34,993 nucleotides of DNA, taken from positions 1 to 34,993 of the forward strand of contig CAZXHI010000001.1 in the NCBI GenBank assembly GCA_964640555.1, read 5' to 3'. The position numbers are program-made. This DNA comes from an uncultured Thermoplasmatales archaeon. Lineage in GTDB: Archaea; Thermoplasmatota; E2; DHVEG-1. Positions 27,001 to 30,000 of this stretch are shown piece after piece. Every line of letters starts with the position of its first letter. The first letter of the stretch is position 1.

Positions 27001-30000
27001 TTTGTTTCACTTCTTTTATTGACGGAGCAAATTTCTGTTTGGTAAGAAGCTCCAACGAGAACTTTGCCATTTCTGCCAAGAATCTAAGTGAATCACCGAA
27101 AACAATACTTCCATGTGATTTTCTGGGCAATCTTAGCAGAAAATCAAAGGCAAGATAAGGATCTAGAGTTAAGGTAGCTACATCCCAAGAAGCCAGTTCA
27201 GTTGCATTAATATACTCTTCATCTAGAATTAGCCATGGCGAAGGTACTGGTCTTTTTTTACTGGATGGTAGCATAAATGTTCTTTTCTCAATTTCTGCGC
27301 TTTCCCAAATAAAATTTGTAGAAAAGCTTCTGATTAATTCTTTCAGATCGTCTTTGGAAGCAGCGAAAGGATGTAATTTAGATTTTCTTGCTTTAGGGTC
27401 TGTGGAAAATGAGGTGGATTCAGCCCAGATGTAAAGTTTATTTTCGTTTTTTGAATTATTGCCCCAGATTGCATGTAAGACATGCATGTTTGTACATTCT
27501 CCTAAACTTCATTTGAAGATATTACTCCCATCCGATTATTTTACGAAACTACCAGGATAGCCTCAATGGTTCCTTAAAAAGGAGAAAAAAAGCCTTAATT
27601 TTTCCGTATAAGGCCTAGTGAAGATAACTCCTTTGATAATTTATCTACTGCAACTGATACGTCTGATACCTTCCTTGCACCGGTGCAGACGATTTTTCCA
27701 GAGCCAAAAAGTAACATTGCTACCTTTGGTTCCTTTATACGGTAAACTAAGCCAGGAAATTGTTCTGGTTCATATTCTATATTCTCTAATCCGAGACCCA
27801 TTGCCACCTCGTTTAGATTAAGCTCGCCACCTAGGTCTGATATGGCTACAATGTTTTGTATGACTATGTCCAGATCCTTATATACATCTACTTCCAACTT
27901 CTTGAGTTTCTCTGATATGATGTCGATTGTCTTACGTACATCTTCAATGTTTTTGGCCCCTGTACAGTTGGCCTTACCACTTCTAAATAGAAGCGTAGCT
28001 GTTTTCGGATTTTTTAGTCTATAAACTAAGCCAGGAAACTGTTCTGGTTCATATTCAGTTTCTTCTAATGATTGCGATATCATATCTAAATCTAATTTTT
28101 CTGCAAAGGATGTAGATGCTACAATATTTTCTACTTTTACTTCCGGCATAATTTTTTCCTCCGTTTTCTATAGAACTCCCATAGACCTAAGTTTGTCCTC
28201 AATTGTATTGATGGCATCAGATGCGTCCTCTAATTTTTCAGCTCCGGTACAAACTATTTTTCCAGAATCAAAAATAAGTAATGTCACATTAGAGTCATCC
28301 ATTCTGTAAACCAGTCCAGGAAATTTTTCAGGCTTATATTCCACATTTTCTAGCAATGGATTCTTTACTATATTTACTAGATTTAACTCCTTTTTGAGAT
28401 CCAAAGAAGCTACAATATTTTGGATCTCCACCTCAGGTTCATCTATAACAGAAATTCCCGCTTCCTCTATCTTGTCGATTGTTTTAATCATTGAATCTTC
28501 AATCTCGTCAATATTTTTAGCACCAGTGCAAATAATCTCCCCACTGGAAAAAACCAAGGCAGCAGTTTTAGGGTCATTAAAATGCAGGGCCAACCCTGGA
28601 AATTCTTCAGGGTCATACTTTGAATCGTGTATGGCATCTGCTAGATGTTCTATATCTAGTTTTTTTGCTATCTGAGTAGTGGCCACAATATTTTCAATGA
28701 TTATATCCGCCATAATGTTACTAGCCTCCCCCTCCTGAAGTATATAAATAACTTTTATAAAGATTTCGTTTGCAAAATGGAGAAAAAATCAGTTGTTTTT
28801 GATGGTTTTACCAGAATCTGTCAATGTCTAAATCACTGTCATTTTTCCTGTTTTTCCCCTTCTTTTTTTCCCCACTAATTTTGTCAAGTATCCCACGAAA
28901 TTCATCGGTGCGGTACTCAATACGTCTTTCACAGCTGGCCACAGCAAGCTCTCCTCTTGTCTTTTCAATAATTCCTCTTACCATGTCCTGCTTTTGTTTT
29001 ATTGGAACCAACGCAGAAGGATAATCAAATTTCATAATAGAATCATATATTTCATCCATAAGTTTAAGATAGTTATTTGCCTCGTCGGCTTTTCCATCAA
29101 GAATACAGTCCAATGATTTTCGCCTCAGCTCTCCTACTACATCGCATAATCCTCGTAAATATGAGCTATATGTGGTTTGTAATTTATCTGGGTCAGGCAA
29201 GTCCTTGTTTTGCATTATATTATAGAGACAATGTGCTTCTACAAGTTCTTGGGCAGCATTTTCAACAAAACCCGCATGGTACAGTTCTGGATACTTTTCA
29301 GTTAAATCATATAATTCCGCAAGCTTGGCAGATGCCTTTTTTATGTTACTTCCCGCATCTTTCATCAGGTCCCGATGGATATATTGAATTGCTTTTCTAC
29401 ATCCTATGATTATATCCCTTGAGTATCTAAGTGCTTGCTCTCTAACCCTATCCTTATCATCAATACTTTTCTCGATTTTATCGATGATTTTGTTTAAGTT
29501 CTTCATTGTGTATCTGACGTTCTCCATAGTTATATCTTTCTTTACATTAATTTTTTGTTAACCCAAAAATCAGGAATCTTCCCATCTAACACTTTAATTA
29601 TTTGTTCTGCACAAACGGTACCTGCTCGTATCTGCCCCTCTTTTGTATTGGCTCCTATGTGGGGTGTTAAAACCACGTTATCAAGTGTAAGCAGTGGGCT
29701 GTCTTTTGGCGGTTCATTTTCAAAAACGTCAAGTCCCGCTCCAGCAATAGTTCCATTTTTCAATGCGTTATAAAGTGCTTTTTCGTCTACAGTTCCGCCT
29801 CTGGCACAGTTAATAATGTATGCAGACGATTTCATCTTTGAAAGCATTTCCCCATTGACAATATAATGCGTTTGTGGTATGTGTGGAAGGTGAAGTGAAA
29901 TAAAATCTGCATTTTTCATGACGTCCTCAAGTTCATCTTCCTTTTTTATATTATCTTTTTTCATGTCTTCCTTTGAAATAAATGGGTCATACCCGATAAC

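What a model noticed while it worked through the whole genome (the two positions that open the first line are those of the whole stretch)
27595..28713. Order-wide fast-evolving second TBP in tandem with the canonical TBP
A divergent TBP (C1:28168-28713, 44% identical, pI 4.4) lies just upstream of the canonical TBP, and the same pair recurs in all three families of the order. TBP2 is a TRF2-like or decoy factor: its N-terminal repeat has lost the conserved basic DNA-backbone residues, and in many relatives also a TATA-intercalating Phe, so it would read non-TATA promoters or titrate TFB. Archaeal TBP paralogs described so far keep TATA recognition.
Evidence so far: Canonical orthologs are 66-91% identical to this genome's TBP1; the 19 tandem partners recovered are 31-51% and form one long-branched clade (support 1.0). 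The canonical N-repeat VYRL is replaced in all 19, and the FPGL Phe is lost in 7 of 19. This genome's copy also changes the C-terminal stirrup from YEPEQ to YKPEK. TBP with Translin two genes apart in 69 of 117 order genomes.
(Added by a program. Inside this text positions count along the whole contig: contig position 1 is position 1 of the stretch shown here. "Call 12" and the like, gene names such as g00115 and contig names such as C1 are that model's own, and its searches are not shown. The text may have been shortened before it was handed on; [...] marks where a part breaks off. The agent that wrote the report below was given it as the finding of a first reader that could run no searches.)

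Follow-up and report, generated by a model that had tools for sequence, protein, structure and literature searches.

The report
Sidelined native TBP beside its replacement
Across a whole order of sediment archaea, a fast-evolving TATA-binding protein gene sits between the main TBP promoter and a highly conserved TBP gene; it is likely the lineage's original TBP, sidelined by a probably imported copy and kept as a predicted DNA-binding tuner rather than a TRF2-like factor or TFB decoy.

Summary
The tandem pair is real: 95 of 118 order genomes carry the divergent copy (TBP2), in all three families; 7 have lost it cleanly and 16 are undetermined. TBP2 is under relaxed purifying selection (dN/dS about 0.19, against 0.03 for TBP1).

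The TRF2/decoy reading is not supported. The slowest-evolving sites are the central saddle and the C-lobe DNA face (C-lobe Phe pair kept in 70 of 81), whereas the TFB-binding stirrup glutamates drift (both kept in 14 of 81). Loss of the N-lobe Phe pair with the C pair kept is already described for haloarchaeal TbpC. This genome's copy keeps all four Phe, and the genome has five TBPs, not two.

New here: TBP2 follows a double-TATA promoter that marks the main tbp gene in sister orders and groups with those TBPs (97/88), while TBP1 groups with Aciduliprofundum/Thermoplasmatales TBPs (99/96), against RpoB. Best reading: the native TBP was sidelined by a probably acquired TBP1 and is kept as a DNA-binding, weakly TFB-recruiting modulator. 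Function is untested and transfer direction unresolved. Verdict: new variant of a known kind.

The parts
28168..28713 (-). TBP2: divergent TBP, first gene behind the promoter; four Phe kept here, with R44H, K59E, E127K and K142N (TBP1 numbering)
27595..28149 (-). TBP1: near-invariant TBP; groups with Aciduliprofundum/Thermoplasmatales TBPs
28158..28162 (-). GGAGG ribosome-binding site of TBP1 inside the 18-bp gap (no room for a promoter there; inferred operon)
   Evidence: RBS-like motif before TBP1 in 75 of 78 loci, gene gap -20 to 51 bp, median 16
28764..28768 (-). BRE-like CGAAA
   Evidence: A at -18/-17/-16 in 68, 73 and 75 of 77 loci; BRE consensus recalled
28754..28761 (-). TATA box 1 (TTTATAAA)
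28740..28748 (-). TATA box 2 (TTTATATAC), 13 bp downstream of box 1 and 35 bp before the TBP2 start
   Evidence: double box in 74 of 78 TBP2 upstream regions vs 17 of 867 control gene starts
28808..29527 (-). Translin-family gene: syntenic upstream neighbour, no evidence of a functional link
   Evidence: not near tbp in 51 loci from other orders of the class
29542..30495 (-). SerA-like D-2-hydroxyacid dehydrogenase, syntenic context

Best explanation
TBP2 is a purifying-selected TBP paralog lying between the main tbp promoter and TBP1; it is likely the lineage's native TBP, relieved of core initiation when a probably acquired TBP1 was placed behind it, and is predicted to persist as a DNA-binding but poorly TFB-recruiting modulator of TBP1. 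SHOWN: the arrangement, order-wide retention, dN/dS well below 1, the asymmetric conservation, the promoter it shares with the main tbp of sister orders, and the discordant tree placement of TBP1. INFERRED: co-transcription; that TBP1 (with its 0-3 or more later duplicates) does the housekeeping initiation; that TBP2's N-lobe Phe pair and TFB stirrup decayed repeatedly and independently; that the conserved central saddle and C-lobe face still grip the upstream half of TATA-like DNA without full bending or stable TFB recruitment, so TBP2 competes with and damps TBP1, plausibly at the second TATA box of its own operon. Four-Phe copies such as this genome's probably remain partly competent TBPs, so the family is a gradient and not one new factor.
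For: Selection: median dN/dS 0.188 (0.085-0.378) over 24 disjoint pairs, vs 0.029 for TBP1 and 0.079 for Translin (14 pairs); kept in 95 of 102 determinable genomes. Asymmetry at fold-symmetric positions of 81 copies, C-lobe vs N-lobe: F148 79 vs F55 34; F131 70 vs F38 37; S150 73 vs S57 27; K152 73 vs K59 46; L146 70 vs L53 29; central N8 81, T63 77, G64 81. Site rates: saddle 0.37 and 0.44, C-lobe face 0.56, N-lobe outer face 0.92, stirrup 1.51, mean 1.12. Minimum changes on the tree: F38 6, F55 9, E127 12, E129 15, vs F131 2, F148 2. The two C-lobe Glu contact TFB (PMC7221094, passages). Both Phe sets are needed for efficient bending by M. jannaschii TBP, tested with an F42A/F59A mutant (PMC4041446, passages; that this is the N-lobe pair is my inference). 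Native position: double TATA before TBP2 in 74 of 78, before the main TBP of sister orders in 13 of 15, other classes 10 of 21, solo TBP1-family paralogs 0 of 44, secondary f8/f9 TBPs 1 of 17; where TBP2 is lost the promoter stays in front of TBP1. Tree: TBP2 with f8/f9/f11 TBPs 97/88; TBP1 family with f29/f30 99/96. The f29/f30 proteins are named Aciduliprofundum and Thermoplasma TBP. RpoB keeps the order inside its class (99) and f29/f30 elsewhere (96). The main TFB is 85-86% identical to f4/f5/f6, 77-80% to f8/f9/f11 and 69% to f29/f30. AU test rejects TBP1+TBP2 as sisters, p=0.028.
Against: No binding, expression or knockout data. The phylogeny rests on 182 columns, 56 rows and only 3 f29/f30 sequences, with 4 strict shared characters. 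Without those taxa TBP1+TBP2 monophyly was not rejected (p=0.415). In-place duplication followed by export to the f29/f30 ancestor is borderline (p=0.058), while import is merely not rejected (p=0.245). Sequence polarity is even: 13 positions where TBP2 is ancestral, 13 where TBP1 is. TBP1 GC and GC3 match its neighbours. The C-lobe backbone contact R137 is fast (rate 1.53) and K142 is mostly lost, which weakens DNA binding. Nine copies lost F131 and two lost all four Phe, yet they persist. 18 of 81 keep all four Phe and 14 keep both stirrup Glu. Seven genomes lack TBP2, and f5/f6/f7 TBPs lack the double box (0 of 12). The double box is older than TBP2's divergence, so it need not involve TBP2.
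Confidence: 0.4

Rival explanations
1. Slowly decaying redundant TBP: TBP2 is a partly functional back-up, kept mainly because it sits first in the tbp operon; selection only preserves a foldable protein, and lineages drift towards loss.
For: dN/dS about 6-fold above TBP1; a gradient from four-Phe/YEPEQF copies to copies with no Phe; 7 clean deletions that leave the promoter; TbpC precedent is dispensable (PMC4230888).
Against: Kept in 95 of 102 determinable genomes across three families although deletion is evidently tolerated; asymmetric constraint on exposed C-lobe residues whose N-lobe twins are free; retained in G038 without TBP1 in the next 1.9 kb.
Confidence: 0.28
2. Anti-TBP: the conserved concave face binds TBP1 (or another protein) rather than DNA, buffering free TBP1 with which it is co-expressed.
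For: Conservation centres on the hydrophobic saddle and C-lobe face while backbone contacts R44, R137 and K142 vary; coupled genes; TBP dimers appear among solved structures (1VOK title). That the dimer interface is the concave face is recalled, and searches found no paper for it.
Against: K152 and S150, phosphate contacts by recall, are among the slowest sites; TBP1 is near-invariant, yet TBP2's face varies between lineages.
Confidence: 0.13
3. TRF2-like alternative initiation factor that reads non-TATA promoters with one of the three TFBs.
For: At least one N-lobe Phe is lost in 63 of 81 and both in 28; the roughly 6-fold rate increase resembles the roughly 5-fold of TRF2 (PMC4180970); three TFBs are present.
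Against: No fixed substitution: replacements differ by lineage and arose at least 6 and 9 times; the TFB stirrup is unconstrained; all three TFBs keep identical RGRS and PRTL motifs, so no co-evolved partner is evident (motif roles recalled); this genome's copy has four Phe.
Confidence: 0.12
4. Decoy that titrates TFB.
For: 22 of 81 copies keep two acidic stirrup residues; inhibitory paralogs of general factors exist in archaea (TFS4; PMC7289017, passages).
Against: Stirrup sites evolve faster than average, carry K/R in 34 of 81 and are non-acidic at both positions in 25 of 81, while the DNA face is conserved.
Confidence: 0.05

Closest known systems
Haloarchaeal TbpC (Becker et al. 2014, PMC4230888; section 14 read)
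   Same: Archaeal TBP paralog that lost the N-terminal Phe pair and kept the C-terminal pair, with repeated independent losses; dispensable; relaxed selection proposed.
   Different: TbpC: 21 homologs in 18 of 80 species, not detected as transcript. TBP2 is in 95 of 118 genomes, first behind the main tbp promoter, and the Phe loss is partial and lineage-specific. Orthology was not tested; an independent origin is assumed from TBP2's grouping with TBPs of its own class.
Canonical archaeal TBP (P. woesei 1AIS/1D3U, M. jannaschii 2Z8U; NCBIfam PRK00394)
   Same: Same fold and two repeats; this copy keeps all four Phe and both Asn; passes NF001593 (189 vs cut-off 181); P. woesei TBP shares the His for Arg in the N repeat.
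   Different: E127K and K59E here; most relatives lack one or both N-lobe Phe and stirrup Glu, positions invariant in 51 of 51 outgroup main TBPs.
Metazoan TRF2/TBPL1 (PMC4180970, passages)
   Same: About 40% identity to TBP and a 5-6-fold faster rate.
   Different: TRF2 has fixed changes at three of four Phe and keeps TFIIA/TFIIB binding; TBP2 keeps the C pair, has no fixed change, and lets the TFB stirrup drift.
Trypanosoma brucei TBP-related factor (as described in PMC4180970)
   Same: Loss of the first two Phe.
   Different: It is the sole TBP of its organism; TBP2 coexists with conserved TBPs and TATA promoters.
Inhibitory or accessory paralogs of archaeal general factors, TFS4 and TFB3 (PMC7289017, passages)
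   Same: A general-factor paralog that lost one functional surface and became a regulator; this is the role proposed here.
   Different: Those are experimentally shown; no such role is shown for TBP2.

Membership tests
Archaeal TBP family | Two PF00352 repeats, saddle fold | tested here: met
Archaeal TBP family | Four intercalating Phe | tested here: inconclusive
   met in this copy and 18 of 81; not met in 63 of 81
Archaeal TBP family | Two C-lobe stirrup Glu for TFB | tested here: not met
   E127K here; both Glu in 14 of 81
Archaeal TBP family | TATA bending and TFB-dependent initiation | not testable with these tools
   needs biochemistry
TRF2/TBPL1 | Fixed change of three of four Phe | tested here: not met
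   three or more lost in 11 of 81, lineage-specific residues; C pair kept in 70 of 81
TRF2/TBPL1 | Conserved TFIIB-contact sites | tested here: not met
   stirrup rate 1.51 vs mean 1.12
TRF2/TBPL1 | Drives TATA-less promoters | not testable with these tools
   none
TbpC-like N-lobe-degenerate TBP | N-terminal Phe pair lost, C-terminal pair kept | tested here: inconclusive
   exact pattern in 17 of 81, one N Phe lost in 35 more; not met in this copy
TbpC-like N-lobe-degenerate TBP | Orthology to haloarchaeal tbpC | not tested
   no haloarchaeal sequences in my trees
TbpC-like N-lobe-degenerate TBP | Dispensable | tested here: met
   7 genomes with clean loss; genomic inference only
TFB decoy | TFB surface conserved, DNA face lost | tested here: not met
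   opposite pattern
Pseudogene | Broken frames, dN/dS near 1 | tested here: not met
   81 full-length frames; dN/dS 0.085-0.378

The most novel reading that the evidence does not exclude
A core transcription factor was replaced by a horizontally acquired TBP inserted behind the native gene, and the native TBP became a DNA-binding, TFB-blind repressor that closes a feedback loop on a double-TATA element conserved in tbp promoters across much of Thermoplasmatota: TBP autoregulation plus a dedicated anti-initiation TBP in archaea.
Probability: 0.2. Interest if true: 0.75.

Novelty: new variant of a known kind. Interest (0 to 1): 0.5.

Why it matters
TBP is usually treated as vertically inherited, so an order-wide case where the working TBP looks acquired and the native one survives in altered form would be a rare view of a core-factor displacement in progress, and a caution for TBP phylogenies. 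The 81 copies form a natural mutational series (four Phe down to none, stirrup intact to charge-reversed) for testing what each lobe contributes. The double-TATA tbp promoter makes TBP autoregulation testable in cultivable Thermoplasmatota. If TBP2 is only decaying, the result is an ordinary TbpC-like paralog.

Tried and rejected
Complex prediction of TBP1 with TBP2: verdict 'no answer', score 0.00; used neither for nor against.

Expression: 7 runs listed, all small shares; 4 laid, contigs only. The two runs on record as RNA had no cover over TBP2, and the two with partial cover are probably DNA. Uninformative.

Pseudogene: rejected.

Acidic pI as a DNA-mimic sign: rejected, family median 5.0 like TBP1's 4.8.

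R44H as proof of lost TATA binding: rejected (P. woesei TBP).

Functional link to Translin: no support; absent near tbp in 51 loci from other orders and it stays when TBP2 is lost.

Mot1-like link to the downstream SWIM-SNF2 genes: the SNF2 hit appears in 1 of 130 loci, with short flanks.

Co-evolved TFB partner: none evident among the three TFBs.

'TBP2 ancestral by sequence polarity': even, 13 vs 13.

The search for related loci gave only 4 loci and added nothing.

Box 2 invariance is partly built in, because loci were aligned on it; the counts I rely on come.

Literature: searches listed no paper on this TBP pair, on TBP transfer in Thermoplasmatota or on tandem TATA boxes in archaeal tbp promoters. 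The library lacks most subscription papers, so absence from print is not shown. Supplementary Fig. S3 of PMC4041446 (the Phe mutant data) was not viewed.

Full report
OBSERVATION. The window holds two TBP genes on the minus strand, TBP2 (28168-28713) 18 bp upstream of TBP1 (27595-28149), 44% identical. The genome has three further TBPs 80-81% identical to TBP1, and three TFBs, so TBP2 is the odd one of five. An 87%-identical protein is named 'Thermoplasmatales archaeon SCGC AB-539-C06'; that this points to MBG-D/Thermoprofundales is recalled.

DISTRIBUTION. Of 118 order genomes, 112 had a TBP match. I fetched 130 loci from the 150 listed matches (145 more were not listed) and found the partner in 82 of 92 genomes. 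G005 and 26 Translin-anchored loci added 13, giving 95 of 118. Seven genomes (G025, G037, G077, G078, G083, G084, G087) have TBP1 without TBP2 at the locus; a Pfam search of four of them found no divergent copy elsewhere. Sixteen are undetermined. None of 51 loci from other orders of the class showed the pair. Kin are not independent: two genera supply about a third of the copies.

SELECTION AND ANATOMY. Among 81 full-length copies (one partial dropped), identity to TBP1 is 27-52% and median pairwise identity 36%, against 87% for TBP1. Nei-Gojobori dN/dS over 24 disjoint close pairs is 0.188, against 0.029 for TBP1 and 0.079 for Translin: relaxed but clearly purifying. The model is a normal TBP fold. 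Phe status at positions 38, 55, 131, 148: FFFF 18, FxFF 19, xFFF 16, xxFF 17, xxxF 9, xxxx 2. Fold-symmetric positions are conserved in the C lobe and free in the N lobe, the central saddle is slowest, and the two stirrup glutamates are faster than average. All these positions except 61 and 142 are invariant or nearly so in 51 outgroup main TBPs. The Phe pairs and their role come from PMC4180970 and PMC5809078 (passages), the stirrup-TFB contact from PMC7221094 (passages and sections 7, 8, 10), and the need for both Phe sets from PMC4041446 (passages). Roles of the other residues are recalled from yeast TBP. This genome's copy keeps four Phe; its E127K is not shared by its genus-mate.

PROMOTER. 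Upstream of TBP2 lie a BRE-like CGAAA, a TATA box and a second TATA box 13 bp on. A double box at 12-14 bp spacing occurs before TBP2 in 74 of 78 loci (shuffles 0.4), before the main TBP of sister orders in 13 of 15, in other classes in 10 of 21, in the f5/f6/f7 families in 0 of 12, before solo TBP1-family paralogs in 0 of 44, and at 17 of 867 control gene starts. TBP1 follows at a median 16 bp with an RBS-like motif in 75 of 78. Where TBP2 is lost, the promoter remains ahead of TBP1 in six of the seven genomes. I infer an operon with TBP2 in the ancestral position. Box 2 could be a second promoter, an AT-rich melting region, or a TBP-bound operator; this is untested.

HISTORY. With class outgroups only (57 of 252 rows), TBP2 grouped with f8/f9/f11 TBPs (98/81), but sisterhood with TBP1 was not rejected (p=0.415). 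With 18 rows from other classes (56 rows), the TBP1 family joined f29/f30 (99/96) and TBP2 stayed with f8/f9/f11 (97/88). The f29/f30 proteins are Aciduliprofundum and Thermoplasma TBPs, 65-66% identical to TBP1 and its best outgroup match, sharing N61, T74, M117 and I181. RpoB places the order in its own class and f29/f30 elsewhere, and TFB identities agree. AU tests: TBP1+TBP2 p=0.028; TBP1+TBP2+f29/f30 p=0.058; TBP1 nested with f29/f30 among their RpoB kin p=0.245. A transfer, or a deep hidden paralogy, involving TBP1 is therefore likely. Import is favoured over duplication-then-export but not established on 182 columns with long branches.

MECHANISM. Best reading (0.4): native TBP sidelined by TBP1, losing N-lobe and TFB contacts repeatedly, and kept for a function of the saddle and C-lobe face, most simply partial TATA binding that competes with TBP1. 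Rivals: slow decay (0.28), TBP1-binding anti-TBP (0.13), TRF2-like (0.12), TFB decoy (0.05). The history is better supported than the function.

COMPARISON AND NOVELTY. TBP2 is a TBP by fold, not a TRF2 member and not a TFB decoy by sequence test. PMC3597702, PMC12093143 and PMC7289017 were seen as passages. What is new is the order-wide retention at the head of the tbp operon, the discordant origin of TBP1 and the double-TATA promoter; ten searches listed no paper on these, within an incomplete library. Verdict: new variant of a known kind, interest 0.5.

Noticed in passing
window 28740-28768 (-); L134, L151-L158, L170, L193-L205: Double TATA box at 12-14 bp spacing in front of the main tbp gene across much of Thermoplasmatota (13 of 15 in sister orders, 10 of 21 in other classes) but at 2% of control gene starts; candidate TBP autoregulatory element independent of TBP2.
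   Followed up: partly
G000 C83, C106, C20 and 44 solo loci in the order: Extra TBP1-family copies (up to 9 TBP matches in G058) have a different shared upstream motif, a TATA-like box followed by ACTTGTT/ACATGTT; a possible regulator site.
   Followed up: no
L209-L212 (families f14, f26, f39): The TBP of these families, apparently the only one by Pfam, carries a roughly 20-50 aa insertion between the two repeats.
   Followed up: no
L218 (G213, f25) and L183 (G156, f7): Other divergent second TBPs outside the order; L218 has a weak N repeat (42 vs 69 bits) and L183 fell inside the TBP2 clade on a long branch.
   Followed up: partly
L179/L182 (G195, f10): TBP1-like gene (68%) split by a frameshift, outside the order; could be a further transfer, contamination or an assembly error.
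   Followed up: no
L189 (G200, f15): Independent recent tandem TBP duplication of two near-identical copies in another class.
   Followed up: no
L131-L150, L159 (f8, f9): Sister orders carry 3-7 TBP matches in f8, including two paralog clades with YEPEI/VF stirrups, one with His at the N-lobe Arg.
   Followed up: no
window 23479-27487 (-): SWIM-finger and SNF2 helicase pair directly downstream of TBP1; seen in 1 of 130 loci, so not part of the conserved block.
   Followed up: partly
G000 C20:9292-11536: One extra TBP1-family gene and one extra TFB lie within about 0.8 kb of each other, next to an Alba-like ORF (family call from recall).
   Followed up: no
L227 (G038) and L231 (G063): TBP2 retained with no TBP1 in the next 1.9 kb (G038) or with only a short TBP fragment behind it (G063).
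   Followed up: no
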